Below are positions 9,181 to 62,159 of a stretch of DNA of 64,000 nucleotides, in pieces (position 1 is the stretch's first letter; the number at the start of each line of letters is the position of its first letter). Location: positions 1-64,000 of the IMG/VR virus record IMGVR_UViG_3300012205_000277, one strand, 5' to 3'. The notes beneath the pieces are model-generated. The model saw only the letters and a program-made list of their open reading frames with translations. It was not told where the DNA came from and did no database searches. The translations under genes and the position numbers were made by a program. Source of the DNA: a virus.

Positions 9181-9275
9181 TTCGGCGTGGATAAGCCAGG
9201 TATGACTATATGGGCTGCGGCAAGACTTGCAATGGCAGGCAAGGCCGAGGGAGCGAATTCTGCTCCCTCTTTTTT
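9181..9275 (+). ncRNA. Pentamer-repeat (GGN-NN) candidate guide RNA 1
   Basis: 10 pentamers 9184-9233 plus GGCAGGC; own promoter and own terminator. Confidence 0.7.
9247..9275 (+). terminator. Rho-independent terminator
   Basis: GAGGGAGC-7nt-GCTCCCTC followed by T6. Confidence 0.8.
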
Positions 9276-9289
9276 CACCTGAATTCGCA

Positions 9290-9544
9290 TTACGTAACGT
9301 CCGGAGTGCCTTCGTCGATGATGCCCGGTTTTTGGCCGCCGTAAATATAAGCTTGATAATTCGTTACGGCCGTTTGTGCCGCTTGATAGGCAGCTTTGTT
9401 CGTTTCGCTGGTTTCGATGCCGGCCTGATAAGTAGCCAACGTCGACGCTGCCGTCGCCTGCAAAACGGCGAGCTGCGTCAATTGCGCCGCTGTCGGAACA
9501 TGAGGCGCATCTGCGCCTTGCGGATTCCCTGCTGCTGCTGGCAT
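9290..9544 (-). CDS. Small protein downstream of the capsid gene
   Basis: GGAG SD; position in the head operon. Confidence 0.65.
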   Translation of the reverse strand: MPAAAGNPQGADAPHVPTAAQLTQLAVLQATAASTLATYQAGIETSETNKAAYQAAQTAVTNYQAYIYGGQKPGIIDEGTPDVT

Positions 9545-9576
9545 AGGCCCTCTCCTTCAGAAATCGCCAGCCGCTA

Positions 9577-11256: not shown

Positions 11257-11307
11257 TGCTGTGCTCCTAACGGAAATTTCGCTTCTTGAATCTTGGAACC
11301 GGCCTTA

Positions 11308-11991: not shown

Positions 11992-12025
11992 CGTTCCTCC
12001 TAGAATCTTTAGAAAAAATCCCGTT

Positions 12026-13228: not shown

Positions 13229-13412
13229 TTCACAAAAACCGTATCGAAGAAATGCACCACATACAACTAATTTCTTATAACTAGGATTGGCAGCATTAGA
13301 AACTTAGGCTGCGGGGAATAAAAACTTAGGCTGTTTCTGTTAAAATCAAGCGGCGGACGGCTGTTGAAAGCAGCGCGCCCGCCAGCATAACGAGTCGTTG
13401 GAGGACTCAACC

Positions 13413-13892
13413 ATGCGCTCTCACTTTAATGGCAAACCGGTACAGTTTCAATGGTTGATTCACCGGGTCAAAGAACACAAATCAAATAAATGTCTATTCT
13501 GGGATGGCCGTCTTGAGAAAACCGGATATGCAAGGATTCGGTCAGAGAATGGTCCAAAGGAATTCGTCCATCGAATAGCATATCGGCTGTTTGTAAAACC
13601 AATCCCGAAAGGCAAGTTTGTTCTGCATCATTGCGACAATCGTTCTTGTTTTTGGTATATGCATCTTTATCTTGGTACAAAGAAGAAGAATTCGGAGGAT
13701 ATGGTCGAACGCGGGAGAAGCATGCGCGGAGAAAGGAATTGTAAAGCAAAGCTCACACCAGAAAATGTTATTGAGATACGAAGGCTTTACAAAGAAGGAA
13801 TCAATGCAACGGTCTTGGGATTCCGCTTCGGGGTGGATAGAACCGTAGCGTGGCAGGCCGCCACGCGAAGAACATGGAAATATTTAACCTGA
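13413..13892 (+). CDS. HNH endonuclease (zinc-binding type), antisense to the head operon
   Basis: HRIAY..F...IPKG..VLHHCDN..C....HL.LGT...N..DM..RGR, AKLT...V.EIR; GGAGG SD. Confidence 0.88.
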   Translation: MRSHFNGKPVQFQWLIHRVKEHKSNKCLFWDGRLEKTGYARIRSENGPKEFVHRIAYRLFVKPIPKGKFVLHHCDNRSCFWYMHLYLGTKKKNSEDMVERGRSMRGERNCKAKLTPENVIEIRRLYKEGINATVLGFRFGVDRTVAWQAATRRTWKYLT

Positions 13893-14753: not shown

Positions 14754-14791
14754 GGATGGATTGTGACTTCAGAATTGCCGACTCGTCAAGG

Positions 14792-15193
14792 TTATCTTCC
14801 GGCCAGCCGCGAGTTCATCCATCCCATGGCTTCTTCGATGCCCCGAGATGGAACTTCGACTTCGAATTCCTTATCGTCAAAATAAATTCGCCGAAGCTTC
14901 TTTGCTACATCAGCAGATGCTGCATCAGCAGGCCGAAAATCCCATAGGCATGTTGGTACTTTGGCGAGATTACGCATTTTTATCATCAAATCCCAGGTCC
15001 CGTACCGCCAAAGTTCGGTTTCGGGGTAGAACAGGCCGGCTTCTACTGGTTCGTTCAAAATCACTTCCCGGGCTCGCTTGTAAGCAATTGCGTCCGCCCA
15101 CATTTGGTCGTCAGCCGCTGCATTCAATTCCGGCGCCACAAAGAGGCCGATGATCCCGCCGAACAGAACTTTGAAAAAGGATTTACGCTCCAT
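14792..15193 (-). CDS. Hypothetical protein with Tat-like signal
   Basis: MERKSFFKVLFGGIIGLFVAPELNA. Confidence 0.65.
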   Translation of the reverse strand: MERKSFFKVLFGGIIGLFVAPELNAAADDQMWADAIAYKRAREVILNEPVEAGLFYPETELWRYGTWDLMIKMRNLAKVPTCLWDFRPADAASADVAKKLRRIYFDDKEFEVEVPSRGIEEAMGWMNSRLAGR

Positions 15194-15590
15194 GATTGAT
15201 CCTCAGCCACCGTCCGTCAGGAAGTGTTATAGTGCCAGTCTCTCGAAATTGCCGCATATTGTTTTTAAACGCCGTCACCTGCTCTGTTGTTGGCTGCTTT
15301 GGGTGTAAAAGACCGCATTTCTGGCAATCCTCCACATTAAACAGAAAGCCTCCCAGTTCGCCGTTCGGTTCACCGACTATGGCGGCAGCCTCTTTAAGCG
15401 TTAGGCGCGTGGGTTGTGATTGGCAATCCCAGGCTATACCAGGAGGAAGTAATCCGGGCATGCCCGGAGAATAATCTACCGTCATCTTAATATCGGTTGG
15501 CCTAGGCCACAAGCAAACGGCCTTCAGTTTTGCCGCCAGCACCGCGAACGGCGATAGCAGAATGGTGCGAAGAAAAGATTTACGTTCCAT
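15183..15590 (-). CDS. Hypothetical protein with Tat-like signal
   Basis: MERKSFLRTILLSPFAVLAAKLKA; GGAGG SD. Confidence 0.65.
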   Translation of the reverse strand: MERKSFLRTILLSPFAVLAAKLKAVCLWPRPTDIKMTVDYSPGMPGLLPPGIAWDCQSQPTRLTLKEAAAIVGEPNGELGGFLFNVEDCQKCGLLHPKQPTTEQVTAFKNNMRQFRETGTITLPDGRWLRINHGA

Positions 15591-16011
15591 ATTGCCTCCT
15601 CAATCAAAGTTCCTGGTCGTTGTTACGAGGTAAGAGTCCTTGCCCCTAATCTCAATGGTGAGCGTCTTAAACGCCGTACAAAGAGCTGGAGCTAATTTTT
15701 TTAGCAGTTCGTCGTCCAACCCTTCAGACTCCAAGGTAACAACGGTGCGAACCGACCAACTGTCACCTTTTTTATTTGGTTTGGTTTTACTAGTGGTTAT
15801 CTTCATAGCGATCCTATGTAGCTGAGAGTGGTCGAGCCACAATTCGGGCAATATTTCCAAGCTTTGCTGGCGATCCCTACACTATTTGATTCGCATACCA
15901 GACATTCAAAAACTTTTGCCCTGAGCAATAATTCTATAAGTTCTGTCGCGGCCGGCATGCCTTCTGCACAAGTTCGGAAAAGTTCTTCATCGGTCATTTC
16001 TTCCGCTGATT

Positions 16012-16257
16012 TCATAATTGTCCCTTTGTCCTAACGCGCGCCTTCGGCTGCTCGCCGCCGACAACGCTCTTGCGAATGAACTGCTCGATATCCGACTCGC
16101 GGTATTTGATTGCGGAGCCCAAGCGCACAAAGGGCAGTCGAGGCGTGCCGAGTGATCGCCACTTTTCCAAAGTTTTTGGACTAAGGCCGAGTTTCTCGGC
16201 CGCTTCTCGCTGATTCAGCAGTTGCGCGGATGTCATTTTTTCCCCCCAGGGAAACAA
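16012..16257 (-). CDS. Excisionase-like/AlpA helix-turn-helix protein
   Basis: LLNQREAAEKLGLSPKTLEKWR...P.VRLG..IKY...DIE.F. Confidence 0.85.
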   Translation of the reverse strand: MFPWGEKMTSAQLLNQREAAEKLGLSPKTLEKWRSLGTPRLPFVRLGSAIKYRESDIEQFIRKSVVGGEQPKARVRTKGQL

Positions 16258-16263
16258 TTCCCG

Positions 16264-17217
16264 CTAATATACAGTTTTTGGAGTAGCTGCAAATTCACAC
16301 TCACCATTAGGCTGCCTCTCCGCGCATCGTGAGATCGTCCTGATTAATCCAAATACGTTTTCCATTCTAGCCCTTTCCTTGAGATGGTCTCTGGCGAATT
16401 GATCCAAATGTAAAATTGACAAACGAATACAATTCATCCGAGTCTTTATGTTTTCTCCAGGAACCATCCATCTGTCCAGGTCTTTAAACCACCAGATTGC
16501 ACAATTAAGTTCCTCATAGTTGTAAACATGCCCGCTTGGGCGCGGCCATAAAACCTCGCCATACATTACGGTTCGCTTCTCGTTTATTTGAAGAGGTTTT
16601 TTACGTTCCTCGTACATACGGATATCTGTTTGTTTGCGGAGCCCGTCAATAATGATTGACTCCGTCGTTGCTGGATGTGCGATGATTCGTTCCTTTGCCG
16701 CTATGGCTATTGGCAAAATCCGATCACGCACGGCAATCAAATCATCGGTTTTGGTTAAATCGTATCGCAGTCGAGTTCTGTGGTTTAACTTGGGGAATAG
16801 GGTGCGAAGGGTAGGTTTCGCAAAGACCTCGGATGTCGATATAAGAAGGCCGTTGTCCATAAGAGTTAAAAATAGGTTCCAGATATCTTGGCTACCGGAC
16901 CGCTTAATTGAGCTTGCTAGATATGACCTGGTTTGCAAATTTTTTATAAAGACGGCTAGTTCTTCCGCTCGCGGAAATGTATAAAATGCCCCATGTCTCT
17001 GTCTGGTCAGGGCATTTGTAGACCCGGACATTTTGTCCGGACCCGGCAAAATGTCCGGGTCGTACGGGGGATTGACTGGCACTGTGGCAATTCCCACCGA
17101 TGTATCTTCCGGTTGGCTGATAATCGAGACGTGCGAAATAACCGATGCATGACCGCATCCTGACAGTTTACCAATAAAACAATTAAGTTGCTCTTCTAAT
17201 TCAGATTCTGGAATCAT
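16264..17217 (-). CDS. Hypothetical protein (AT-richer)
   Basis: 317-aa ORF with AAGGA SD. Confidence 0.65.
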   Translation of the reverse strand: MIPESELEEQLNCFIGKLSGCGHASVISHVSIISQPEDTSVGIATVPVNPPYDPDILPGPDKMSGSTNALTRQRHGAFYTFPRAEELAVFIKNLQTRSYLASSIKRSGSQDIWNLFLTLMDNGLLISTSEVFAKPTLRTLFPKLNHRTRLRYDLTKTDDLIAVRDRILPIAIAAKERIIAHPATTESIIIDGLRKQTDIRMYEERKKPLQINEKRTVMYGEVLWPRPSGHVYNYEELNCAIWWFKDLDRWMVPGENIKTRMNCIRLSILHLDQFARDHLKERARMENVFGLIRTISRCAERQPNGECEFAATPKTVY

Positions 17218-17248
17218 GTATTCCTTTGGAACCCCAGGGGTTGCCCAG

Positions 17249-17458
17249 CTAATCCCGTGTTTTGTGATCCCTTTTTAGAAATGCTTCCAAGCTGGTTTTG
17301 GGGATGAGTGTCTTACGGCCGATCTTCCTCCTCACCAGTTCCTTTGCTTTAAGCAGGTTATTGACGGTGCGAATCGAAATGCCCAAAAAAGTCGCGGCCT
17401 GCGATTTGGTGTACAGCGCCGGCTCAGGGCGCCAGTCGAGTTGGAACGTGTCCGCCAT
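17249..17458 (-). CDS. Excisionase-like helix-turn-helix protein
   Basis: LYTKSQAATFLGISIRTV..L....EL..RKIGRKTLI. Confidence 0.85.
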   Translation of the reverse strand: MADTFQLDWRPEPALYTKSQAATFLGISIRTVNNLLKAKELVRRKIGRKTLIPKTSLEAFLKRDHKTRD

Positions 17459-17536
17459 CTTTCATTGCACCAGTGCGAGAGCTGTTTCGTATTGGTCCTA
17501 TAGATTCCGGAACCGGCCGGAGGACTCCGCCTTGTT

Positions 17537-18526: not shown

Positions 18527-18614
18527 AAATGCTCCTTTTTACGCAATCGTTTTAATTGGCCGAGCCACGATTTGCGATGTTCGGAGCTGATAACTTAGAG
18601 TCTTTGAATATAGA

Positions 18615-18643
18615 TTGTCAAGGACTATTTTAGGGTGTAAGAT
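18615..18643 (+). promoter_or_regulatory. sigma70 promoter of pentamer RNA 2, overlapping a divergent leftward promoter
   Basis: + strand TTGTCA-N17-TAAGAT; - strand TTGACA(18621-18616)-N18-TAAGTT. Confidence 0.7.
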
Positions 18644-18646
18644 TAT

Positions 18647-18727
18647 GGCGGCACGGAGTGGGTTGGCTGGGCGGGATTTGGTCAGTCAGGAAGAGGCGTG
18701 CAACGATAAGGCATGGCAGGCATGGTT
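18647..18727 (+). ncRNA. Pentamer-repeat candidate guide RNA 2
   Basis: 13 pentamers 18650-18714, each starting with G, then GGCAGGC. Confidence 0.75.
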
Positions 18728-21700
18728 AAATCCCAAGGCGGCGAAGCCGTTCGCTCGGGAGTATCAGTTTCCCGAGGTCCTGTACGGTGTAATCGATTCC
18801 GCTATAAACCAAATTCCTCAGCGTAAATACTTCGCCTTCGATCCCGCTGCCGGCATCCACATATTTTTGTGCGTCGGCTTTCGGATCCAAGTACGCGACG
18901 CAAATGTGCGGCTTATATTCCGGATGGGTTTCTGTGTGCGGGAGTACTTTCAGATCCTCGTGTAACTTTCGCAATTTTTCGCTTTCGATTCGAATTACCA
19001 AAGGCACGCCATCTTCACCAACCGGGAAAGCTTCAAGTCCTTCGATCGTAACTTCTATATCGCCAATTCCTTTGGTGATTTTGTTGATTTGTTTGGCGGT
19101 CACTTCGGCGTGAAAACCCCAAAGTACGGTGACGTGCGGAGCGACATCCCTCCCCTTTTTGGCAAAATCTTCTTCCTCGACTGGAATCGCCAGCACCCGC
19201 TGGGCATCATCGGCCGATAGATTGAATTGGACGCTTCCATATTTGCGTTTCTCGAGAATGTTGCCGAGGATCTTCTGGAACCGGCCGGAAACGGACGTGA
19301 GCTGGGAATTGAACACTTTACGTACAGCATGCTGGATGGCGTGGACGGCTTGTTCGGATTCGGCCGTCAGTACGCCGGCTTCAATACGCGATCCGAGCCG
19401 CTTTTCGAATAACGCTTCGCGAATTTTTTTTTTACCGTCGAGGCTTTCCTTGCCGTTCTCGGCCCCGGTGTTTCTTCCCGTCGACCGGCCGCCACCAGCT
19501 TCCTGGCTGACGGGGGTTCCGCCGCGCGTGGCATTGTGCCCGCCGGCGCCGTTCGTTGCGGGTTTCATAGGCGGTGCCGTGGGCGTTACCGGATGCGGCT
19601 TGATATTTCCCTTTTCATCGACCATCAATCCCGCGGTTGCCGGAGCGACGCCCACCGGAATGAATCCGGTCCCGCTGATCACCCCGAGCTGGTCGGCTTC
19701 CGGCTCCGGCCGCAATTCCTCGCCAACGCGCTTCCGGGCTTCGTTCGGGGTCAGCACGGCTTTCCCGACCAGCATCGTAAGCGCCGCGGCATTCTTCAGC
19801 GGATCCGGCTCGGCATAGGGGTTGATCGCGATTTCATAATCGGTCATGCCCATCTTGCGCTGGATGATGAAATCGATGATCCCTTTGACCCAGAGCACCC
19901 AGGGAAGCGTCCCTTCGACTTCGGCGGCGTCCGAAGACGATTTGCCTTCCGTGCGGATCATCTTCATCAGCCGCTGGGGGCTTGTCCCGTAGCCAAAAGC
20001 GATTTCGCGGATATGCTTTTCGTCGTAGAGCCCGGCCAGGAGCGGCTCTTTCGGGAAAAGAATCTGGTCGATTTTGCCTGGTTCGTTGAATCCTTGCACG
20101 AGCCGCCACTGGTTGCGCTTCGCGAGGTTCCCGGCCAGCTGCGAGTTCATCCATTCCATCGCTTCTTCGATGCGGTCGGGTGAGGTTCCACGTGGAACGA
20201 CTTGAACGACGCCGGGAACGGATCCTTCGGTATTCCCGGACCATGCAACTTTTCCGTTGCGACGGACATAAAGGAATTTATTGGGAACACAGACGCAGCA
20301 AACGGGGCCGCTATATTGTTCGCGGGTTGCGGTCCATCCGCGCGTATTTATGCCTTTACGGCGCGTGACCATCCAGCCAATTCGAGATTTACCTGAACGG
20401 CTATCGGGAAACTTTGCGGTTTGCGCCTTGCGTGTCCATGTTGTTGAAGCATCACCCATCTTCTGGATGATTTCTGTGAGTTGGTCAGCTAGTTTCTTAC
20501 TGACTGTGAACACCTGCGGAGTTCCGGAAGCGCATCCATCACCCATCCAATAATACTTCCAAAAAATCTCCAATTGGCGCGTGGTGGTATCGCGAATATC
20601 ATCCGGGATGAATTTTTGATGCGAATGGCCAAGTGGTTTCAGAAAGTCAACGAGCACTCGGCGCTGAAACTCGAACTGATGGCCGGAATAACATGGCTCG
20701 TCACCGAGAATATCCGCAAGCAGTTTTAGGTAGAGTTCATAACTGCCACGTGTATCTCTTTTCTTTTGGGCAATCTGAATAGACCTTCTGCGCGTAGAGC
20801 CTTCTGCTAAATACATGCCCATGAAAGCGCAATATTGGTCACCAGTCATGCGGACTTCGAGTGGATCTGGGCCACTTCGCTTTTTTGTTGACTTGAACAC
20901 CTTCTCAGAAATCTCAGTTCCCATCCATACAGATGACTGCGGGATTCCGGTGCGTCCGGAATACACTTCTGCCAGTGCATCGGCTTCAATGACAAATTCT
21001 TTTTTGCGCCCAGGCTTGCCTTTTCCAAGAGCGCGAGGCAGTGAATCAACAAGCATCCGATGGTTTGGTGTAACGAGCAGATCCAAACTTTGGCCCTTAA
21101 AGTGGACCATCTCCCCTTCGTAATGTTTATAAAAAGTGTCGTATGCTTTTTGCCACTCAAAGATTCCTGTTTGAATTTGACGTGTCGCAAATTCATCATT
21201 CTCATTTGTTTCTGCAAAACGGAACCAGCCGCGTTTTGTCAAGACTTCGGTATCATCGGAGTAGCAATAGTAGGCAAGAACGAACTGCATGCGTTTGATG
21301 CCGATTTGAATTTCCGGGGCAAGTTGTTCAGTCACGGAATTCCCGTATAGCTGAGAGGCCAGCGTATTGCGGGGCACGATGCTGCGCGGCTTGTAAACGA
21401 GTTGGTCCGTAGTTAGGTCGACCAGCGGCAAGCCCCACCAGTTTTGGGCATAAGCCGGGCTCGGCGGCATGGGCGTAAATCCGTTGTTATCTATATAGCG
21501 CGTGATCATCTCCCCTCTTATCGTAGGGAGTTCCGCGATTTCTCCTTTGTATGTTTTCCTGATCAAAATGCTGGGCGCATCGATGACCAGCAGATCGTCG
21601 AGCAGCGGCCGAAGCCATTCCTGCCAGTTGTGCTCGCGGTCGGGATATTCAAAGAACCGGTTCAGTTTGATCAGGTCGTCTTTGTTGTCTTTGGCGCGCT

Positions 21701-31519: not shown

Positions 31520-31635
31520 GCGCATCGCATCCCAGAAGTTATGAGCCGCATCGCATCGCAGATCGTCGCGCCTTGCGGCTCTGTGTCGCATGAGCGCGCA
31601 TCCTAGGACGCATCGCAACCGCATCGCATCGCAGG
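31520..31635. repeat. CGCAT short-repeat tract
   Basis: About 10 copies of CGCAT in ~115 bp. Confidence 0.65.
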
Positions 31636-35758: not shown

Positions 35759-37390
35759 ATGCCGGCAGCCAAACCCACCACCCCCGAGCCGGACATCCCC
35801 CAGGAGCTGATCGACAAGTTCACGCCCAAAAGGTTAATCACTGTCAAACTCCGGAATCCCGCCGGGCATCCGGGGCAGGAACGGATCTGCTATTCCACCA
35901 AGAAACGCATCATCGTAAGGGCCGGAAGACGTGGAGGCAAAACTTCCGCCAGTGCCATCAAGGCGGTGATGTCGTTTTTAGGGGACCCCGATAGAGGCAT
36001 TCCACCGAAACGCGTCCTTTATGCCGCGCCGACCATCGACCAGGTGCGTAAATTCTGGGAAGAAGTCAAACGCGCCTTGCACGAAGGCCTGGCCTACAAG
36101 GTGTATTACAAAAACGAGACCAACCATATTATCGAGCCCTTCGGAACTCCGCCGGTGATGCCCGGAGAACGTCCCCGGCACCCACGGATCCGCGCCAAAA
36201 CCGCCTTCAACGCGGAGAGTTTGCGTGGAGATTTCGCCGACGTTTTGATCCTCGATGAATACCAACTGATGGATGAAACCGCCTGGACGGAAGTCGGCGC
36301 GCCGATGCTGATGGACAATAACGGGGATGTGATTTTCATATACACGCCACCCAGCCTCGAAAGCCGCTCGGCATCGAAGGCGCGCGACCCGCAGCATGCC
36401 GCGAAAATGTACCGCGAACATAAAGACGATCCGTTGTGGGAATGCATCCATTTCGCGAGCAGAGAAAACCCGCACATCTCTGAAGAAGGGATCGAAGAAG
36501 CCAGTAAGAACATGACGGCGCTCGCCTACCGCCAGGAGATTCTCGCCGAAGATACCGAAGAAATTCCGGGAGCCTTGTGGACGCGGAAAATCATCGAAGA
36601 GTCCAGAGTGAAATCGATTCCGTGCGAACTGCGGCGGGTGGTGGTGGCGGTCGATCCGAGCGGCGGAAACCTTACCGAAGTCGGGATCATGGCGGCCGGC
36701 GAAGGCGCCGACGGGCATTACTATGTGCTGCGCGACGCTTCGATGAAAGCCAGCCGGCCGAAAGAATGGGCGCAGCGCGCGGTGAACCTGTATTACGAGC
36801 TCCTCGCCGACCGGGTAATCGCGGAACGCAACTACGGCGGGGACATGGTCGAAGAAACGCTACGTAACGTGGATGAAAACGTGTCTTACCACGACGTTGT
36901 TTCTTCGCGCGGGAAACTGGTGCGCGCCGAGCCCATCCTGGCGCTGTTCCAGCAAAACAAGATGCACCTGGTATGCCGCTGCGGGCAATCGCCCTGCCGC
37001 GAATTCGCGGAACTGGAAGAAGAACTCGTCACGTACACGGCCGAAGCCGGCCAGAAATCGCCGAACCGCTTAGACGCCATGGTCTTTGCAGGAACGGAAC
37101 TTTCCGGCATGGGCAGCCTCGGCCTGCTCGACCTGTTCAAGTCCGGGCGCGCCGGGAAAATGGCGGAACGGGAAATCGCGAAGATCAAGACGTCGACCTC
37201 GCTGGCCGCGATCGCGACAAACGACAAGACCCCGCGGTGCACGAATTGCGGAAGCTTGACGCTAAGCGTGCTCAGCCGCGGGCCGCAATTCGACGGCGGG
37301 ATCGAGTACCGCTGCCAGGCTTGCGGAAACCAGCAACCCAAGCCCACCATTTTGGGAATCGGCAGCCGACGAATCCAATTGGAAAAATAA
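35759..37390 (+). CDS. terL: Terminase large subunit with C-terminal zinc ribbon
   Basis: AGRRGGKT, LRG...D.LILDE, VAVDPS, E.NYGG, K..RAEP, SPNRLDA. Confidence 0.95.
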   Translation: MPAAKPTTPEPDIPQELIDKFTPKRLITVKLRNPAGHPGQERICYSTKKRIIVRAGRRGGKTSASAIKAVMSFLGDPDRGIPPKRVLYAAPTIDQVRKFWEEVKRALHEGLAYKVYYKNETNHIIEPFGTPPVMPGERPRHPRIRAKTAFNAESLRGDFADVLILDEYQLMDETAWTEVGAPMLMDNNGDVIFIYTPPSLESRSASKARDPQHAAKMYREHKDDPLWECIHFASRENPHISEEGIEEASKNMTALAYRQEILAEDTEEIPGALWTRKIIEESRVKSIPCELRRVVVAVDPSGGNLTEVGIMAAGEGADGHYYVLRDASMKASRPKEWAQRAVNLYYELLADRVIAERNYGGDMVEETLRNVDENVSYHDVVSSRGKLVRAEPILALFQQNKMHLVCRCGQSPCREFAELEEELVTYTAEAGQKSPNRLDAMVFAGTELSGMGSLGLLDLFKSGRAGKMAEREIAKIKTSTSLAAIATNDKTPRCTNCGSLTLSVLSRGPQFDGGIEYRCQACGNQQPKPTILGIGSRRIQLEK

Positions 37391-37465
37391 TGCAATGCCT
37401 GCCCTGCCTCGTTCGCGCCGTTTCTAACCCTGTTCGTGCCAATGCTCAACTCTCCTCGCCTGATT
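37391..37465 (-). ncRNA. Pentamer-repeat candidate guide RNA 3
   Basis: 11 units (two are 6 nt) plus GGCAGGC; promoter TTGACA(37498-37493)-N18-TAGACT. Confidence 0.7.
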
Positions 37466-37541
37466 CCAAGTCTACTATCTTACCCGGCAGGTTGTCAAGG
37501 ATTGCTTGACCTGGGGAAACAAAGGCGGTAAGTTGATGGGT

Positions 37542-48075: not shown

Positions 48076-49203
48076 TCATGGGCATTGGGATTCCTTCCGA
48101 TCGTTGTAAGTCGGCCCATAGCCTTCGATGCGAACCAGTTTCCGGAATTCGGCTGGCAGCGGGTTTGGCGCCTGGTCCAGATGGTTCAAGGCAATCCAGT
48201 CGACCCCGCCGCAAATAGCGAGTGCTTTGCGGAATAGCTGCTCGTCGAAACGGCCGTACCGGAATGCTCCGGGGAATCCTGGCTCGTTGTGCGGCTCGGG
48301 ATAGCTCAGAGTCGGATCTTCGGTCGGGAATGCTCCGAGGCCGTGCCGTGTGTAGTAGGTACGGATAATGCCGACGCGCGTGCGTTTGCCATCATAGCCG
48401 GATTCATTCAGGAGCGTATCCGCATTGTGGAATGTGCAATCCGTCCACGTATTGAATCCCGGCTCGCCATGATTCTCATCGAGCAGCACGCCCTGGGCCC
48501 CTTCGAAGATGGCGCAATCTGTCTCGGCGAGCAAGGTTTTCAGATGCCCGCGGTCGACCACCTTCGCCGGCCAGTTTTTGTACCAGCTCCAGCACACGTC
48601 GATCAGATCGTCTTTCTGCAGCGTTGGATCGACATAGCGTACGAATGGCTTGGTCATAAACCCGGCGGCGCTCAATTCATCCGAGGCCCAGAGTTCGATA
48701 AACTTAAGTTTCTGGCGAACTAAAGTTTCATTTTTTAGGTCGCCGGCGAACAGTGCCCGATCGCCAAACTCCAGATGGAATTGGCGGCACTTGCCGATGC
48801 CCTGGCCGCAAGTGTTCGTGCGGTTGCCTGGAAGAGTCAAGAGGCGGTTCAATTCTCTGTGGAAAGGGGTGACGATTAATGCTTCGGCGTCGACCGTTGT
48901 ACGCTCCCAGGCGTCAGTGACGCCAAGTGATGCCAAATGCTCAGCTTCTCTCATAGCATTTATTGGATTGTAAAGCATAAATCTTGAGATATGCGTGCGC
49001 ACACCGGGATGGAAAGTGCCACTCCCGAATTGCTGGAAGATATGATGCCGGCCGTCGGGTGTCACTACGGAATGCCCTGCTTGGCAGCCTCCGGAATAGC
49101 GGACGACAAGCCCGGCATTATGCCAAAAAGTAAGTGCGTCAACTGTACTGCCTTTGCCGCAGTCGCCAAAACCCAAGCCGCAGACGAGGAAACTTTGCTT
49201 CAC
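48076..49203 (-). CDS. purA: Adenylosuccinate synthetase-like protein
   Basis: GLGFGDCGKG, GGCQAGH, FEGAQG.LLD, Y.TRHG.G. Confidence 0.88.
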   Translation of the reverse strand: MKQSFLVCGLGFGDCGKGSTVDALTFWHNAGLVVRYSGGCQAGHSVVTPDGRHHIFQQFGSGTFHPGVRTHISRFMLYNPINAMREAEHLASLGVTDAWERTTVDAEALIVTPFHRELNRLLTLPGNRTNTCGQGIGKCRQFHLEFGDRALFAGDLKNETLVRQKLKFIELWASDELSAAGFMTKPFVRYVDPTLQKDDLIDVCWSWYKNWPAKVVDRGHLKTLLAETDCAIFEGAQGVLLDENHGEPGFNTWTDCTFHNADTLLNESGYDGKRTRVGIIRTYYTRHGLGAFPTEDPTLSYPEPHNEPGFPGAFRYGRFDEQLFRKALAICGGVDWIALNHLDQAPNPLPAEFRKLVRIEGYGPTYNDRKESQCP

Positions 49204-49220
49204 AATCCCTCCTAAATTAA

Positions 49221-49247
49221 GATAGGGCCGCGATTAACGGCCCTATC
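49221..49247 (-). terminator. Terminator-like hairpin between RNA 4 and purA
   Basis: GATAGGGCCG/CGGCCCTATC followed by TTAATTT. Confidence 0.55.
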
Positions 49248-49249
49248 CA

Positions 49250-49331
49250 TTTGACGTGCCTGCCACACCCAGCCCTGGCTCGACCGGTCTTTCCATGCCT
49301 TTGCATTCCAAGGCCCGCCTGCAGCGTCAAA
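49250..49331 (-). ncRNA. Pentamer-repeat candidate guide RNA 4
   Basis: 11 G-initial pentamers plus GGCAGGC, closed by a TTTGACG/CGTCAAA stem. Confidence 0.75.
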
Positions 49332-54196: not shown

Positions 54197-55003
54197 TCAT
54201 GGGAACAATCCACTTTTCTCTTTGCCGTACTGGAAGTAGGCAGATGGATATTCTTGAATTTTGCCTTCGCCTTCTAGCTCAATTTTCATTTCTGTTCTGG
54301 GAGCACTGCTTTGTTTGAACCAGAAAGCAATATCATGCTTCCTACAAATCTTCAGGATGCGCCTGGCCCACTCATGATCCATGAAACGAAATAAGTCAGA
54401 ATTGTTTCCGGATTCTCCGCCCACAATCAGTTGCGAGAAGCCGTCAACATATTCCTCTAGGTCCGGCGTAATGTCTTCGAGCAATGGCTCGGCGGATACA
54501 AACCGAACGTATGCGGGAATCGCGCGGAGCACTGCCATGCGTTTCAAATACTTTTTGCTTTCGACGCTCACTCCCATCCAACAATTCTTATAACCAATCC
54601 CCCAATCAGTAGGTAGGCGCCGCTCAATCAATTCCGGGCGCTTGGTCAATATCTGATAGACCAGGTTCGGAGTGTCTCGGATGATCTTCCATACTTCCGG
54701 ACGCCATTGGTCGGCATCTTGAATGAAGAAATCACTCAAGCTGCAAGTAAAAACCAGATCGTAACGCTTGGCCTTTTCTGCTTCCCGTTGCCAGCGTTTT
54801 GGATCGTTCCAAGTTTTTGTGCGGACTACCGTATCAAATGGATGAGGATTCGCCGGTGTGCCGCGCATCCGGTTAATCATTGCTCGGGCATAGCATGCGT
54901 GGCACCCTGGCGACACGGTCCTGCAGCCAATAAATGGATTCCAAGTTTTTGAGGCCCAGCTAATACGCGTTGTATCGCCCAAATTTACTCCTTTCACCTT
55001 CAC
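54197..55003 (-). CDS. DUF5131 (phage Gp37/Gp68) three-Cys protein
   Basis: WNP..GC..VSPGC..CYA, LSDFF, LTKRPE, S.EPLL, GGESG. Confidence 0.9.
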   Translation of the reverse strand: MKVKGVNLGDTTRISWASKTWNPFIGCRTVSPGCHACYARAMINRMRGTPANPHPFDTVVRTKTWNDPKRWQREAEKAKRYDLVFTCSLSDFFIQDADQWRPEVWKIIRDTPNLVYQILTKRPELIERRLPTDWGIGYKNCWMGVSVESKKYLKRMAVLRAIPAYVRFVSAEPLLEDITPDLEEYVDGFSQLIVGGESGNNSDLFRFMDHEWARRILKICRKHDIAFWFKQSSAPRTEMKIELEGEGKIQEYPSAYFQYGKEKSGLFP

Positions 55004-55006
55004 TGA

Positions 55007-55125
55007 CTTACCTGTCCCTGCCGTACAATTCCAAGAACGCGAACACCGCGCCTAACCCAAGCGGGCCAGTTCGTGTCTTGTCCCGCCGAGGCTGGACATG
55101 CCATGACTAACCGGTCCGGGTTAAG
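55007..55125 (-). ncRNA. Pentamer-repeat candidate guide RNA 5
   Basis: ~20 pentamers (first 15 G-initial) plus GGGACAGG; promoter TTGACA(55152-55147) with -10 TAATCT (N17) or TATAAT (N15). Confidence 0.72.
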
Positions 55126-55158
55126 ATTATAACTTAGGGTCTAATTTGTCAATGATTT

Positions 55159-55839
55159 TTACTGCGCTTCGACAAGCAAGCCGTAGTAATCGACTCTTCC
55201 TAGATTGATAACATAGCCTCTGGTAATATGGGCCGTCGGGCACGGCATCGTCAGAAGACATTTGTCCGCGTAATCAAATACTTCTTTCTTTCCGGGAACA
55301 TTCCAACTCTCAGGGATACCCATCACCCGCTTTGCCAACTTGCTGATCGGCATCTTGCCGCTTCCGGGTCCGTGTTGGCCATAAGATACAGTCCCGCGCG
55401 TCAAAAATACAACTGTGCGTTGCTTGATCCGGAATAGCAATTCATGCCAGATCTCCCATGGATCGCCGTAACAGTCCACGTCCACCGTGTTATACCTACC
55501 CAAGCCTGTGCCGGTGTATTCATCGACTTTCGTATCGCCATTCAAGGCCGCGATAAAGCGCGGCGTGATTTTAATTTGGAGCTGGCCGGCTTGCTTCGCG
55601 ACTGCATCGACCGGCGTATACGTTTGGACTTGCAAGGCCCGCGGCTGATCCTCGGGAGATAAGTCCGGATCGTAGCGCGGCTGGCGCCGGAGCTCCGACC
55701 AAACCATTCCCTCCCCGGCAAATAAATCAAGGACACGCAGCGGTTCCATCTGGGCTTCCTCAATCAGGAACCTTCGTAGGTAAACTTTATCGGCTAAAGA
55801 ACGATTGTCGGTTTTTTTCTGCAGCGCCGAAGCACTCAT
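55159..55839 (-). CDS. Methyltransferase-like protein upstream of DUF5131
   Basis: VLDLFAGEG..W, Y..VD.D.YG.P. Confidence 0.6.
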   Translation of the reverse strand: MSASALQKKTDNRSLADKVYLRRFLIEEAQMEPLRVLDLFAGEGMVWSELRRQPRYDPDLSPEDQPRALQVQTYTPVDAVAKQAGQLQIKITPRFIAALNGDTKVDEYTGTGLGRYNTVDVDCYGDPWEIWHELLFRIKQRTVVFLTRGTVSYGQHGPGSGKMPISKLAKRVMGIPESWNVPGKKEVFDYADKCLLTMPCPTAHITRGYVINLGRVDYYGLLVEAQ

Positions 55840-56385
55840 AGCGGATCGAGCCCGATATCGAGCGCCTTGAAAATCCACTGGCTTATTTCTGTCGCCGTGG
55901 CCAAGTCGCGCGCGCTGATTCTCAGGTCTGCAAGTTCGGTTTGGAATTCCGGCTGGTCCCAACAGGGAGCGTTGATCCAATGGCAAAGATAGTCGCGCAC
56001 CAAAGAAATCTGTTCGTCAGTAACCGTGGTTCCTTTGATCCGATTGTCCAGGTAAGCGTTGACGGCGCTGATCAATGTTCCGGAGACTTCATCGCGCCAA
56101 AAAAAAGGGAGCCCCAGCGGGGGCTTGTACGCGGCCGGCATAATTGTCATGGGGATTTGTCTCTAGGCAACAGCAGCTTCAGATTCGGGTTCAGGCTTTT
56201 TCTTTTTGGAGCCGGGCGGTCTGCCGCCAAGTTTTGCCCATCTGGATAATTGCGCGGCGGAATGTCTTTTTGCGCGAGCGCGGCCGCCTTTGCTGCCAAC
56301 TTTTTGGAAAAATTCCAAAGCCGGGCCGCTCAATTTCAATTTGTCTTTCTTTGCCATTGGTTCCTCGTCTGGTCATAAGTATACA

Positions 56386-58739: not shown

Positions 58740-58799
58740 GGCCGCGCCCTGGCTTGAATCTTAGACACTAACATAAGTCCCGGCAGGGCAGGCGCGGTT
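58740..58799 (+). ncRNA. Degenerate pentamer-repeat RNA 6
   Basis: GGCCGCGCC/GGCGCGGTT closing stem, GGCAG-GGCAGGC end, irregular period. Confidence 0.45.
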
Positions 58800-59223
58800 A
58801 ATCCTGCAAGACAATTGATCGCGTCGTTTGCAATAAAAATATCGGCTCGATCGGAGCACTGCTTGTGATTTTGCGGCCGGCCCGGAGGAATGCCTGTTCC
58901 GCCGCAGGAGTCGTCCGGCTCTTATCCACTGGTTCCTTGGACAAGATCAGGTCGATGTGCTTGCACGCGATCTTCGGCGCTTTGTGAAACTTCCAGAACG
59001 GGCAGGAACATGCCCAGGTCCCGTCCGCTTTCATGGAAACTACGTATTGGGCATCGGAAGTCATGCTGGTGACTTGCCAACGCGCGATGTACTGCGCACT
59101 CGGTTTCAGTTTCGTAACCATTTTGTTTCTCCCTTTTTTTGATTCCAACCACTGTTTCACTTCGGCTTTGATGGCTGCATCAATTGTCTGCATCGTCTTC
59201 GGGAAGATTTTGTGCTTCTTCAT
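58798..59223 (-). CDS. SWIM zinc-finger protein
   Basis: W.CSCP.W.......CKHI. Confidence 0.78.
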   Translation of the reverse strand: MKKHKIFPKTMQTIDAAIKAEVKQWLESKKGRNKMVTKLKPSAQYIARWQVTSMTSDAQYVVSMKADGTWACSCPFWKFHKAPKIACKHIDLILSKEPVDKSRTTPAAEQAFLRAGRKITSSAPIEPIFLLQTTRSIVLQD

Positions 59224-59958
59224 TTTGTTTCCTCCATCAGTCGTATGCATTCCTCAAGGCGCCCGGCGCGCAATAATCGGAGACGCTCACTCGCCGCCGG
59301 GATCGCCATCTCTCCTTTCCATCGTTGTTTGAGAAGCGGAAATCCGCGATGCCAATCGTTGAGCACACAAGCATCGCCGTCCCACGTGGCCTCATCGGCA
59401 CGCTCTAGGGAAAATTCCACACCCAAATAAGCGGAACCTTCATTGAACCAGGTTGAGTCGAGCAGAATATTCTGCGCGTCTGCGTTCCAGGCATGAGGAA
59501 CTGGCAAGGCGGCCCCACCAAAACCGGGCAGCGCATAGCCTTCGACATATTTAAGGTTGTAGATCGCGCCTGCAAAAACGGAATTCCCGTAGCAGTGTTT
59601 TGGAAGGCCGCGATAACCGTCTGGCGGATAAGCCACCGGCTCGTACCAGATCCCATGCTCGATGATGAAGTCGGCGGAACAGGAATAGACAAAGCCATCC
59701 GGCTTCGTCATGCATTCCCGTATCTGTTCGAGGGCACGCAACAAGCGGTTTCGTGCCTGGTTCATTTCTTGACCCATGGGACGGTATGCCAAGTCCTCAA
59801 GAGGAGGACATGCGGGATGGGATATGGTGTCCCGGCTTTAACTGCCTTCATGATCTTGCGCATCCCGTTCTTTCCGAACATCAACTCCATGTCCTTATAG
59901 AAGGCCGCAAGATGCTTGATCGGCACGGTGATATCCAGGGTGACGACGACCTCTGATT

Positions 59959-61461
59959 TCATGCGACCTTCTTCGGCGCGGCCTTTGGCTTGGATTTCTT
60001 TTCGCTGGCTTGTTTGGCCAATTGGGCGAGTGGGACACCAGCTTGTTTTGCTTTAGCATCGAGCAGTTGCGCCTTGTTGGTGCTGCCGCTGTGGAACCAC
60101 AGGTCGGATTCCGCCAGCATGAGCAGATAGAGCCACTGATAAACGGCGTCTGCGGTCAATTTGGCAAGGTTCTTCTTGACTGTGCCGTGATAGTCCTTCC
60201 CGCCATACTTCGCGGCTGCTGGCTGCCATTCCATGGCGTCAGCGAGACTTTTGGCGTGATCGTGGCTGAGTCCTTCGATCGCGTGGCCCAAGATTACGCG
60301 GTAGTCTTTAGTGGCCATCGGGAAGGTATCCGACGCCAGTTCTTTGAATACCAGTGCGCGGCGCCGCAGCTCGATCTTGCGCTTTCGATCGGCCTGCTTT
60401 GATGCATCACTGCGTTTATAGCCCGAGTCAGAAGCATAAGACTGATGCGTCTTGCATTTCTGGTTCGTGCAAATCTTCAATATTTGACCAAGTTTCGCTT
60501 CCTGGTTGTGATTGGCATAGTGGCTGATCTGTTCGACCACCACGCCTTGTTTCGTGTCCGGGCAATTCTTGTCGCCGGCTTTTACCCAGGTCGTCAGGTG
60601 TTTGGCTCTGGAAGATTCATACTGCGAGGCAATGCTCAGCAGGACCGCGTCCTTGTGGGTACCCACCTGAATCTTGATGAAGGCCCGGGTCTTTTCCTCG
60701 AAGCAGGCCGGATCGGTGCAGGTGTCGGCGCTTCGCACGTCTTCAAAAAGCGCCTTGTTGAATCCGGTGCGTTTCGGGCAAGTCACACAGGACCCCGCTT
60801 TGGCTACCAGCTTCGCGTCAGTCGTATCGAATGGAGCCTGCTTCAGCACCAGAAAGAAATGCCGTGCGATTTCATCCGCGAGGTTGCGCGCACTGTCGCC
60901 ACGCTTCAGCCAAGGCACGATTTGTTTCTGCTGCTCCGGCTGGAGCCGCGCGGCCTGGTCGGCATGGCCAACGCCGATTTTGTTTTCGAGAAACAGCTTC
61001 CGGATTGGCTCGATGAGATCCGCGTATTTCAATCGTCGCTGCACATACGCAGTTGACTTCCCTAGCCGTGTTGCGAGCTGCTCCAAGGACAAATTCCCTT
61101 CCTTCTGCAATTGCTGGTAGCCGGTACATTGTTCGAGTGGGTGAATATTTTCCCGTTGATCGTTTTCAAGAACCATCAGTTCGACGGCCTGCTGATCGGT
61201 CATTTCGCGGACGAGTACTGGCACTTCGACCAAGCCAGCATCTTTTGCGGCGAGATATCGCCGATGACCGGAGACGATCTCCAAATGCTTGTAGACCGGG
61301 CCTACGCCATTTTGCACTGGTCTCGCGAGCAAGGGCGTAACGATTCCTTGCTCGCGGATACTGGCAACCAATTCGGTCATGGCCTTCTTATCGAAGAATC
61401 GACGCGGATTGTTTTTTGACTCTTGCAGACTTCCGATTGGCACTTTTTGTAGTTCTGACAT
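59959..61461 (-). CDS. ParB/RepB/Spo0J family protein
   Basis: NPRR.F, L..SI...G...P, IVSGHRRY.AA, EN.QRE...P.E; C..CPKR...C.D..CF. Confidence 0.9.
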   Translation of the reverse strand: MSELQKVPIGSLQESKNNPRRFFDKKAMTELVASIREQGIVTPLLARPVQNGVGPVYKHLEIVSGHRRYLAAKDAGLVEVPVLVREMTDQQAVELMVLENDQRENIHPLEQCTGYQQLQKEGNLSLEQLATRLGKSTAYVQRRLKYADLIEPIRKLFLENKIGVGHADQAARLQPEQQKQIVPWLKRGDSARNLADEIARHFFLVLKQAPFDTTDAKLVAKAGSCVTCPKRTGFNKALFEDVRSADTCTDPACFEEKTRAFIKIQVGTHKDAVLLSIASQYESSRAKHLTTWVKAGDKNCPDTKQGVVVEQISHYANHNQEAKLGQILKICTNQKCKTHQSYASDSGYKRSDASKQADRKRKIELRRRALVFKELASDTFPMATKDYRVILGHAIEGLSHDHAKSLADAMEWQPAAAKYGGKDYHGTVKKNLAKLTADAVYQWLYLLMLAESDLWFHSGSTNKAQLLDAKAKQAGVPLAQLAKQASEKKSKPKAAPKKVA

Positions 61462-62071
61462 TTCGTTTCTCCCTTGCAAAACTTCCAGGCGTCTTGCTGC
61501 CCTTTAAATAACTTTCCCTTGCTTATTGAGGAAGGCTTTCCAAGTGAACCGCGTGCACTCGCATTGGAGGCATTCAAGATGATGCAGGTCTCCGCCATGC
61601 TGTGACCTCTTGTGGCCGCAGCAGCAGAGTTCTTCGATGACCTTTGACCAATCGCGTTTCTTCTTCTTCATCAGGCTAGTTTCCGGCCATTGCGATTGCG
61701 CGCTTGATTGTTCGGGTAGAAAGACGCATTGTGAAATAGGTCCACTTCCGCCCCACTTTCGTGCTGAAAATCTTACCGCCTGCAAGTTGTGGCTTCAGAT
61801 GAATCGCTTTCATTTGGTTTCTCCTTTTTGTTATCGAGCATGTGTTTCGATAAATTCAGCGGCCTTGATGGCCATTGCCCGCCGATCGTCCATCGATACG
61901 GCTGTCTGTGAATGGCTTGGCCCTATCAGCCATCCGGCCCAGAACGCCAGTGCCGGCCCGGCCTCGGAATCAGATACTTCTGGTACTTCTCCGGTAAGCT
62001 GATACTGCCGCAGCCATTCGCTCACTTTCATGTTTGGTACCTCTTAAAATTAGCGGCGGTTCCCGGCCCGC

Positions 62072-62159
62072 GTTTGCCGTTCCTGCCTTGCCGGGCCAAG
62101 GCGGGCCTTTTCGCAACTTTGCCCGCCTCTCCTTCCTTTCCTAGCCTGCCACGGCAAAC
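62072..62159 (-). ncRNA. Pentamer-repeat candidate guide RNA 7
   Basis: ~12 G-initial units between GGCAGG motifs; closed by GTTTGCCGT/ACGGCAAAC. Confidence 0.65.

What the first reader, a model, noticed from the sequence alone, without database searches (positions are those of the whole stretch)
9181..62159. Dispersed family of pentamer-coded small RNAs whose NN dinucleotides spell neighbouring genes while skipping every third base (candidate non-contiguous guide-RNA system)
Seen: seven intergenic elements (9181+, 18647+, 37465-, 49331-, 55125-, 58740+, 62159-) share a G(G)N-NN 5-nt period and a terminal GGCAGG-type motif; most have a stem joining their ends. Four start right at a sigma70 promoter and one has its own terminator. 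Reading only the variable NN as NN-x-NN-x gives clear matches to nearby sequence for RNAs 2-4 (RNA 1 matches its own promoter; RNA 5 is weaker), always on the strand opposite to the one encoding the RNA. In coding targets the skipped base is the codon wobble position. The matches are imperfect to this phage but conservative at the protein level. Inference: these are guides for a repeat-binding protein filament that recognises homologous loci of related phages regardless of synonymous drift, while the resident allele escapes. I recall GGY-NN guide RNAs reported for a Cas7/RAMP-like phage system (VIPR); this should be checked. The individually promoted, locus-adjacent layout resembles homing-endonuclease logic. 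No RAMP-like effector was recognisable in this window.
Basis: partly seen in the sequence, partly recalled or inferred. Interest (0 to 1): 0.97.

Follow-up and report, generated by a model that had tools for sequence, protein, structure and literature searches.

The report
Scattered phage guide RNAs beside immune alleles
This soil phage carries about ten scattered small guide-RNA genes of the recently described VIPR system. Each sits next to one of the phage's own genes and spells, two bases per codon, the version of that gene carried by sibling phages, so it looks like a weapon against relatives kept beside the allele that escapes it.

Summary
All seven named sites are real pentamer arrays: G at unit position 1 in 94% of 128 units, and a shared GGCAG(G) 3' motif. 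Three more lie on the same 92-kb contig beyond the window. 58740+ is only a truncated remnant.

The variable dinucleotides follow the published VIPR one-base-skip code. For six guides the best, usually unique, genome-wide match lies 290-580 bp away. This appears only with a skip of 1, and all six coding sites are in wobble phase.

Resident sites are imperfect (15/20 to 19/22). Half of their single-base mismatches are Leu or Arg codon-family switches (P = 4e-6).

Relatives match better:
- E5 matches relative L105 24/24; the window has no comparable site.
- E4 matches G002 21/22, against 17/22 in the window.
- E7 matches G002 22/24, against 15/24.
- Guides of relatives in the same slots hit this window perfectly: 24/24 at 9315-9349 and 18/18 at 55538-55563.

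No Vipr gene is on the contig, which is about 60% complete. One relative has a divergent Vipr. Another complete relative has arrays but no detectable Vipr.

VIPR itself was published in 2026, but this dispersed layout of a guide beside an immune allele is not in those papers. Earlier notes of this scan report the same layout on other DNA. Verdict: a new variant of a known kind.

The parts
9148..9275 (+). E1: vrRNA-like gene. Promoter hexamers at 9148-9176, array at about 9184-9248, tail GGCAGGCAAGGCC, and an intrinsic terminator at 9247-9269 followed by a T run.
   Evidence: The ortholog in G007 has the same promoter and terminator but a different NN string.
9153..9175 (-). Resident site of E1. 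The match is 16/16 if the non-canonical unit AGCCA is looped out. The site covers E1's own promoter spacer and -10 box, next to the start of divergent ORF 8921-9154.
9315..9349 (-). Site in small gene 9290-9544(-) (peptide YIYGGQKPGIID) that the E1-slot guide of relative G007 matches 24/24.
18615..18730 (+). E2: promoter hexamers at 18615-18643 and a 16-unit array at 18650-18729.
19099..19130 (-). Resident near-cognate site of E2 (19/22), in frame in the 2H/Acb1-like C-terminal domain of gene 18726-22070(-), peptide TVLWGFHAEVT. The skipped base is the wobble base.
37385..37498 (-). E3: promoter at 37498-37469 and an array with two 6-nt units, convergent with terL.
37016..37044 (+). Resident near-cognate site of E3 (16/20), in frame in the terL nuclease domain (EEELVTYTAE). 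This patch is variable among relatives.
49215..49331 (-). E4: 13-unit array at 49319-49255 closed by a 5'/3' stem (UUUGACG/CGUCAAA), followed by a hairpin at 49245-49215.
   Evidence: The upstream handle is conserved in L108.
48965..48996 (+). Resident near-cognate site of E4 (17/22), antisense and in wobble phase in adenylosuccinate-synthetase-like gene 48076-49203(-). Relatives match better: 21/22 (G002), 20/22 (G001) and 19/22.
55000..55175 (-). E5: TTGACA/TATAAT hexamers followed by about 23 units. The first 12 units match the DUF5131 gene allele of relative L105 24/24.
   Evidence: A 25-nt (5-unit) indel polymorphism lies at 55039.
55538..55563 (-). Site in gene 55159-55986(-) (PRFIAALNG) that the E5-slot guide of relatives L107/L108 matches 18/18.
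58741..58810 (+). E6: truncated remnant with only the tail, GGCAGGGCAGGCGCGGTTAATCCTGCAA.
   Evidence: L108 has a full-length array in this slot.
62055..62159 (-). E7: array closed by a 9-bp terminal stem, starting one base after the stop codon of ligase gene 62160-63287(-).
   Evidence: The 5' and 3' handles are identical in L105 while the NN string differs (pos1 9/10, NN 7/20).
62764..62798 (-). Resident allele of the E7 target in the WGR/ATP-dependent ligase gene (YNKKGETVALPA), matched 15/24. The G002 allele YNKEGKAKPLPA is matched 22/24.

Best explanation
The elements are genes for VIPR-type guide RNAs (vrRNAs). Each is a small, separately promoted RNA of about 70-125 nt. Its 5-nt units present two variable bases each, and these read double-stranded DNA two bases per codon while skipping the wobble base. 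In published VIPR loci the guides are arrayed beside vipr. Here they are scattered, and each sits within about 0.6 kb of the phage gene whose alleles in sibling phages it spells: the 2H/Acb1-like C-terminal domain of gene 18726-22070 (relatives were fetched with this protein), terL, a PurA/PurZ-like enzyme, DUF5131, a DNA ligase, and small ORFs.

The resident allele differs at guide-read positions. The differences are Leu or Arg codon-family switches, conservative substitutions, a codon indel, or wholesale divergence. In mixed infection, a Vipr filament loaded with these RNAs would therefore silence the rival's copy and spare the carrier. Placing the guide next to the immune allele keeps the two together through recombination.

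Shown by computation: the periodic anatomy, the one-base-skip code, wobble phasing, hypervariable NN strings in conserved slots, and reciprocal perfect or near-perfect cross-matches between related soil phages. Inferred: transcription, loading onto Vipr, silencing, and the source of Vipr. That source could be the missing ~40% of the genome, or Vipr supplied in trans.
For: Periodicity exceeds shuffles, and G occupies unit position 1 in 94% of units.

Local near-cognate sites appear only with a one-base skip. For E2, E3, E4, E8 and E10 the local site is the single best site in the 92-kb genome, 290-580 bp from the guide, with P about 0.02 each. For E9 it is one of the two best sites, 418 bp away, with P about 0.04. 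All six coding sites are in wobble phase.

Six of 12 single-base mismatches are six-fold synonymous switches, against 4% expected (P = 4e-6).

Orthologous slots in G007, L105 and L108 keep the promoter, handles and terminator but change the NN string.

Cross-matches, with shuffled guides giving 0.0-0.7 hits:
- E5 units 1-12 match L105 24/24.
- E4 matches G002 21/22.
- E7 matches G002 22/24.
- The G007 guide matches this window, L030, L005 and L009 24/24, and its own allele 16/24.
- The L107/L108 guide matches this window, L104 and L106 18/18, and its own allele 17/18.

Relative G001 encodes a Vipr homolog. Its subfamily profile hits PDB 36pp, the SUSP1 Vipr, at 2e-6.
Against: No Vipr homolog is on the contig. 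Complete relative G002 has arrays but no detectable Vipr.

The scaffold is degenerate (GNY rather than GGY), and the tail is a short GGCAG(G) motif rather than the SUSP1-type pseudoknot.

Some resident sites reach 80-90% NN identity (E2 19/22, E10 18/20). That is above the 80% threshold the VIPR authors used to call a target, so escape of the resident allele is not proven. E1 matches its own promoter 16/16 if one unit is looped out.

For E2 the best relatives (20/22) barely exceed the resident site. For E3, E8, E9 and E10 no better allele was found, and exact-pattern scans of IMG/VR for E2 and E10 found nothing.

There is no expression data; no RNA run holds the sequence.
Confidence: 0.75

Rival explanations
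1. Solo (orphan) vrRNAs. The phage has no vipr of its own. Its guides are loaded onto Vipr brought by a co-infecting Vipr-positive relative, or made by the host, and turn that machinery against the rival's own core genes. This would be the 'guns for hire' logic of the October 2026 preprint, extended to core genes.
For: No Vipr is found on 92 kb. G002, rated 100% complete, has two strong arrays at the terL slot but no A1- or A2-type Vipr. Solo vrRNAs on vipr-null phages and satellites are documented (10.64898/2026.10.15.759431).
Against: The contig is only about 60% complete, so vipr may simply lie off the contig. Vipr proteins are very divergent, and the two profiles used may miss another type. 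The tails here differ from those of the arrays in Vipr-positive relative G001, so cross-loading is unproven.
Confidence: 0.3
2. Self-regulation. The guides repress the phage's own neighbouring genes or promoters, for example as a timing switch, and the system tolerates a few mismatches.
For: Resident sites reach 80-90% NN identity for E2, E3, E8 and E10. E1 matches its own promoter 16/16 with one unit looped out.
Against: Wherever relatives are available, a non-self allele matches as well or better, and the only perfect full matches are non-self. E5 has no resident site at all. Orthologous slots change guide while the neighbouring gene stays the same. A self-regulator should co-evolve to a perfect match.
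Confidence: 0.12
3. These are not VIPR guides. They are G-periodic small RNAs that act as sponges or binding platforms for another RNA-binding protein (Csr/Rsm-like), or repeats with no coding meaning in their NN positions.
For: The scaffold is degenerate, no effector has been found, and there is no Rfam match.
Against: The skip-1-specific, wobble-phased local matches and the 24/24 and 18/18 cross-genome matches cannot arise by chance. Expected hits are about 1e-9, and shuffled guides give 0.
Confidence: 0.03

Closest known systems
VIPR vrRNAs of type II systems (Escherichia phage SUSP1, P. fulva prophage); bioRxiv 10.64898/2026.04.26.720920 and 10.64898/2026.04.26.720927
   Same: Tandem 5-nt units with a conserved G-rich scaffold and hypervariable NN. 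Targets are read with a one-base skip that falls on the wobble base, on either strand. Targets lie in competing mobile elements, and each RNA is about 100 nt with a constant 3' end.
   Different: Here the guides are scattered over at least 80 kb as single transcription units instead of arrays flanking vipr. The scaffold is GNY, with only the first G near-invariant. The tail is a short GGCAG(G) motif, plus slot-specific 5'/3' handles that form a closing stem in E4 and E7. The targets are core genes of sibling phages, and a mismatched resident copy lies next to each guide. The published analyses found no own-contig hit at 80% or above.
Solo/orphan vrRNAs of F5 satellites and vipr-null SUSP1-like phages; bioRxiv 10.64898/2026.10.15.759431
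   Same: vrRNA genes without a vipr gene on the same element. Self-match scores are lower than matches to rivals, which avoids autoimmunity. The guides serve conflict between related elements.
   Different: Published solo vrRNAs number 1-2 and sit at the former vipr locus or in a satellite non-coding region. They target vipr, other vrRNAs, satellites or host REP elements. They are not many guides each linked to the neighbouring gene they spell. Whether this phage truly lacks vipr is unknown.
Homing endonuclease genes with a cleavage-resistant host allele, or phage marker exclusion
   Same: A sequence-specific weapon is encoded beside the allele that resists it. This predicts preferential inheritance of the linked pair in mixed infections.
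   Different: Recognition here is RNA-guided, and published VIPR silences rather than cuts. No nuclease is linked to the guides. Drive or gene conversion is purely inferred.
Class 1 CRISPR crRNA with a Cas7 backbone
   Same: A RAMP filament binds a guide RNA periodically and leaves regularly spaced bases unpaired.
   Different: There are no repeats and spacers, no adaptation genes and no PAM. The guide period is 5 nt and the target period 3 nt, and the code is non-contiguous.

Membership tests
VIPR vrRNA | At least 4 (typically 9-16) tandem 5-nt units with a conserved GGY (or related) scaffold alternating with NN | tested here: met
   Each element has 11-23 units. G occupies position 1 in 94% of units and position 2 in 60%, and C/T occupies position 3 in 74%. 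Scores exceed shuffles. The scaffold is degenerate, as the authors allow (NNNNG/YNNNG variants).
VIPR vrRNA | NN hypervariable while the scaffold and flanks are conserved among related loci | tested here: met
   The E1 slot was compared with G007, the E7 slot with L105, and the E4, E5 and E6 slots with L105 and L108. Promoters, handles and terminators are conserved and the NN strings differ. For E7, position 1 is identical in 9/10 units and NN in 7/20 positions.
VIPR vrRNA | Targets follow the one-base-skip rule, with the skipped base on the codon wobble position | tested here: met
   A local signal appears only for skip 1. All 6 resident coding sites, and the L105 and G002 sites, are in wobble phase.
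VIPR vrRNA | Natural targets at 80% NN match or above in competing mobile elements | tested here: met
   E5 matches L105 24/24, E4 matches G002 21/22, and E7 matches G002 22/24. Relatives' guides match this window 24/24 and 18/18.
VIPR vrRNA | No hit on the own contig at 80% NN or above (as reported for the P. fulva clade and types III and V) | tested here: not met
   Over the variable region, resident sites reach 19/22 (E2), 18/20 (E10), 15/18 (E8) and 16/20 (E3). Over the full parsed guide including tail units, none reaches 80%.
VIPR vrRNA | Conserved structured 3' tail (a pseudoknot in the SUSP1 clade) | tested here: inconclusive
   Only a short shared GGCAG(G) motif and slot-specific handles are present. 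A closing stem is seen in E4 and E7 only, and no fold is better than shuffles. Tails of other VIPR types are not described in the text I could read.
VIPR system (complete) | A vipr gene (minimal RAMP with a G-loop) in the same genome, normally flanked by the vrRNAs | tested here: not met
   HMMs of type II Vipr (A1) and of the G001 subfamily (A2), together with hhalign, find nothing on the 92-kb contig. The contig is about 60% complete. Relative G001 has a Vipr homolog 1.7 kb from terL.
VIPR system (complete) | vrRNAs expressed as small RNAs of about 100 nt that co-purify with Vipr and silence matching DNA | not testable with these tools
   No RNA run holds the sequence.
Solo vrRNA (vipr-null carrier) | vrRNA present while vipr is absent from the complete element, with a tail matching that of a helper's vrRNAs | tested here: inconclusive
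   The contig is incomplete. Complete relative G002 has arrays but no detectable Vipr. Tail compatibility with the arrays of G001 is not evident.

The most novel reading that the evidence does not exclude
Each guide and its adjacent recoded gene form a linked 'weapon plus immune allele' cassette, which behaves as a selfish, drive-like unit in phage populations. In mixed infection the guide silences the sibling's essential allele, so progeny preferentially inherit the cassette through recombination. The cassettes may work even without the carrier's own Vipr, by capturing a rival's. This would make VIPR the engine of allele-level warfare and of patchy hypervariability in core phage genes such as terL, the gene 18726-22070 and the ligase.
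Probability: 0.3. Interest if true: 0.9.

Novelty: new variant of a known kind. Interest (0 to 1): 0.8.

Why it matters
VIPR was described only in 2026, with guides clustered at the vipr locus and aimed at satellites, prophage regulators or other VIPR loci. This case adds four things:
- The same gapped code is deployed as many single-guide genes spread through a large soil phage genome.
- Their targets are conserved coding patches of core genes in sibling phages.
- The carrier protects itself by the few synonymous routes the code leaves open (Leu and Arg codon families), by conservative changes, or by a codon indel.
- Co-occurring relatives carry reciprocal guides.

This gives a concrete, testable model for self versus non-self discrimination without a PAM. 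It offers a possible cause of hypervariable patches in essential phage genes. It also provides a natural panel of guide-target pairs with 0-7 mismatches for measuring VIPR's mismatch tolerance.

Tried and rejected
- Full-length guides including tail units, scanned against the own genome, were no better than shuffled guides. The signal appeared only after separating the variable region from the tail and testing locality.
- The GGCAGG motif alone is uninformative: it occurs 67 times in the genome (context).
- Megablast of 24 kb of the window against the phage collection found nothing.
- The Vipr searches of the own contig all found nothing: phmmer with SUSP1 Vipr and with the G001 Vipr, HMMs A1 and A2 with filters off, hhalign against 279 open frames, a motif regex, and inspection of C-terminal G-loops.
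- Pfam and PHROGs scans of about 40 proteins gave no RAMP.
- Exact gapped-pattern scans of IMG/VR for E2 (11 units) and the E10 core returned 0 hits.
- A search for relatives with the PurA-like protein found none. terL relatives other than G007 are too distant.
- 31 other capsid-gene loci (60-83% identity) carry no array at the E1 slot.
- Guides of G001 and G002 have no hit at 82% or above in 1.27 Mb of relatives.
- No RNA holder is listed among the sequencing runs. The contigs laid on the window showed only low-depth DNA variants and the 25-nt E5 indel.
- The record behind L108 (132.7 kb) could not be searched for vipr.
- The 22808+ periodicity peak was rejected: it lies inside a coding gene and is conserved in L107/L108 without NN variation.
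Full report
**What is there.** The window is the first 64 kb of a single 91,829-bp viral contig. IMG/VR labels it a provirus, CheckV rates it about 60% complete, and it has no close match among deposited phages. Its relatives are 150-180-kb soil phages, and one related contig is binned with an Acidobacteria MAG.

In a 12-unit GGY score, 20 Markov shuffles of the genome peak at 19-21.5. The real elements score 21-24, and three more appear beyond the window at genome positions 70745-, 74462- and 87245-. Over 128 parsed units, position 1 is G in 94%, position 2 is G in 60%, position 3 is C or T in 74% and almost never G, and positions 4-5 are close to random. Every element carries a GGCAG unit near its 3' end.

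E1, E2 and E3 follow promoter-like hexamers found by the scan, and E1 ends in a strong terminator. E5 has TTGACA and TATAAT with a 15-nt spacer, and these hexamers are conserved in relatives. E4 and E7 are closed by 7-9-bp stems joining their ends. Otherwise the RNAs fold no better than shuffles. E6 at 58740 is only a tail: relative L108 has a full-length array in that slot with the same tail. Rfam finds only two tRNAs in the window.

**What is known.** VIPR (Viral Interference Programmable Repeat) was described in 2026 preprints. Vipr, a minimal RAMP protein, polymerises on vrRNAs made of 9-16 GGY/NN units plus a constant tail. The NN bases read double-stranded DNA with one base skipped per unit, and that base falls on the codon wobble position. 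The outcome is transcriptional silencing of competing mobile elements (10.64898/2026.04.26.720920 and 10.64898/2026.04.26.720927). A third preprint reports solo vrRNAs on satellites and on vipr-null phages (10.64898/2026.10.15.759431). The authors found no hit at 80% NN match or above on a guide's own contig. I located the SUSP1 locus and confirmed its Vipr against PDB 36pp.

**The code test.** Guides including their tail units matched the own genome no better than shuffled guides. However, the best partial matches clustered beside the elements. I separated the variable region from the tail and allowed 4- and 6-nt units. I then compared the best match within 1 kb of each element with 44 decoy windows elsewhere in the genome.
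- With a one-base skip, E2, E3, E4, E8 and E10 beat every decoy, and E1 and E9 nearly so. Fisher P is 9e-5.
- With a skip of 0 or 2 there is nothing (P = 0.59 and 0.99).
- For five of six coding sites the local site is the single best in the whole genome, 290-580 bp from the guide.
- All six sites are in wobble phase, on the sense or the antisense strand.

| Guide | Resident site | Gene | Match |
|---|---|---|---|
| E2 | 19099-19130 | 2H/Acb1-like C-terminal domain of the 1114-aa gene 18726-22070 | 19/22 |
| E3 | 37016-37044 | terL nuclease domain | 16/20 |
| E4 | 48965-48996 | adenylosuccinate-synthetase-like gene | 17/22 |
| E1 | 9153-9175 | its own promoter | 16/16 with unit AGCCA looped out |

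Gene assignments are, and the E1 match.

**The mismatches.** In the six resident coding sites, 17 codons differ from the guide. Twelve differ by a single base, and six of those twelve are Leu (TTR/CTN) or Arg (CGN/AGR) codon-family switches that keep the amino acid. Four percent would be expected (P = 4e-6). These switches are the only synonymous changes visible to a code that ignores wobble bases. The pattern shows that guide and neighbouring gene are truly related, and that they diverged under selection on the protein. By itself it fits either escape or drift.

**Relatives decide.** G007 is 80-89% identical and collinear with this genome over 1.8-47.5 kb. Its ortholog of E1 has the same promoter and terminator but an unrelated NN string.
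- That guide matches this window 24/24 at 9315-9349, in the small gene next to E1.
- It matches three other relatives (L030, L005, L009) 24/24 although their wobble bases differ.
- It matches two relatives 22/24 and two others 21/24.
- It matches its own allele only 16/24, because that allele carries a Q-to-N change and an extra codon.

Metagenome relatives L104-L108 carry arrays in the E4, E5, E6 and E7 slots, with conserved handles and different NN strings. The E5-slot guide of L107/L108 matches this window 18/18 at 55538-55563, and also L104 and L106. It matches its own allele 17/18, and L105 17/18 through an Arg CGC-to-AGA switch.

The window's own guides behave the same way:
- The first 12 units of E5 match the DUF5131 gene of L105 24/24, antisense and in wobble phase. 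The resident DUF5131 allele is so diverged that no comparable site exists.
- E4 matches G002 21/22, G001 20/22 and three others 19/22, against 17/22 at home.
- E7 begins one base after the stop codon of the WGR/ATP-dependent ligase gene. It matches the G002 ligase allele 22/24, against 15/24 for the resident allele at 62764-62798.
- E2 is marginal: 20/22 in G002, L005 and L009 against 19/22 at home. Those relatives have the guide-matching TTA Leu codon where the window has CTT.

Shuffled guides gave 0.0-0.7 hits in these searches. For E3, E8, E9 and E10 too few relatives cover the locus, and exact-pattern scans of IMG/VR for E2 and E10 found nothing.

**The effector.** No Vipr homolog is on the contig, by any of these methods:
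- phmmer with the SUSP1 Vipr and the G001 Vipr;
- two family HMMs run with filters off;
- hhalign against all 279 open frames of 110 aa or more;
- Pfam and PHROGs scans of about 40 proteins.

Relative G001 (165 kb, with terminal repeats) encodes a divergent Vipr of about 241 aa, 1.7 kb downstream of terL. It carries the conserved RPxxxxW and GxGSWRPxxGGxFGxF motifs. The profile of its subfamily hits the solved SUSP1 Vipr at 2e-6. The arrays next to Vipr genes of this subfamily are GCYNN-type, whereas G001 also has two strong GGYNN arrays far from vipr. G002 (179 kb, rated complete) has two strong arrays at the terL slot but no detectable Vipr. G003 has neither arrays nor Vipr.

The reader protein for this phage may therefore lie in the missing ~40% of the genome. 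It may be too divergent for my profiles. Or it may be supplied in trans, as proposed for published solo vrRNAs.

**Interpretation.** These are vrRNA-type guides (confidence about 0.9). The best-supported function (about 0.75) is allele-specific attack on sibling phages, with the resident allele protected and physically linked to the guide. Self-regulation remains possible for E1, and for resident sites with 80-90% identity, because VIPR's mismatch tolerance is not known. Transcription, Vipr loading, silencing, and any drive-like spread are inferred, not shown.

**Novelty.** The three VIPR papers in the library do not mention terminase or portal genes, alleles or neighbouring genes, so the dispersed layout of a guide beside an immune allele is not published there. 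Earlier unchecked notes of this scan describe the same layout in several other genomes and ordinary VIPR arrays in more than 50. The layout is therefore recurrent rather than unique to this contig. I rate it a new variant of a known kind.

Noticed in passing
window 48076-49203 (-): A short (375-aa) adenylosuccinate-synthetase homolog (PF00709, 4e-43). Its size is like that of PurZ, so the phage might make 2-aminoadenine DNA. This gene is also the E4 target.
   Followed up: no
window 18726-22070 (-), especially 20231-21268: This 1114-aa protein ends in a 2H/Acb1-like (anti-CBASS) domain and has a weak LAGLIDADG hit at aa 503-548. Relative G007 lacks about 1 kb here, which suggests an intein or homing-endonuclease insertion.
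   Followed up: partly
window 14756-18738: A 4-kb segment with about 8 genes and E2 is absent from the otherwise collinear relative G007. G007 instead has two tandem arrays where this window has ORF 13398-13892.
   Followed up: partly
window 55039: A 25-nt (exactly five-unit) indel polymorphism lies inside E5. It is present in L104 and in a soil run (X10). The inserted form contains a tail-like TGCAGG, so E5 may be a fusion of two guides.
   Followed up: partly
window 62160-63287 (-), 59959-61479 (-); genome 69781-70614 (-): The phage encodes a WGR/ATP-dependent DNA ligase and a Ku homolog (an end-joining pair), plus a ParB-like protein.
   Followed up: no
G007 31392-31530 (slot of E3): Relative G007 has the same promoter as E3, but it is followed by a non-periodic RNA-like insert of about 110 nt ending in a T run, instead of a pentamer array.
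   Followed up: no
L110 10780-11000; L111/L112 10750-11700: Arrays immediately beside Vipr genes of the G001 subfamily use GCYNN units rather than GGYNN units.
   Followed up: no
window 39371-39440 and 39511-39582 (+): Rfam finds two tRNA genes.
   Followed up: no
window 22808-22870 (+): A pentamer-score peak of 21.5 lies inside a coding gene. It is conserved in L107/L108 without NN variation, so it is probably chance and not a member of the family.
   Followed up: partly
window 37016-37048 (+): The terL patch read by E3 is hypervariable among close relatives (EEELVTYTAEA here, EEEMCSYCAEP in G007), as expected of a site under guide pressure.
   Followed up: partly
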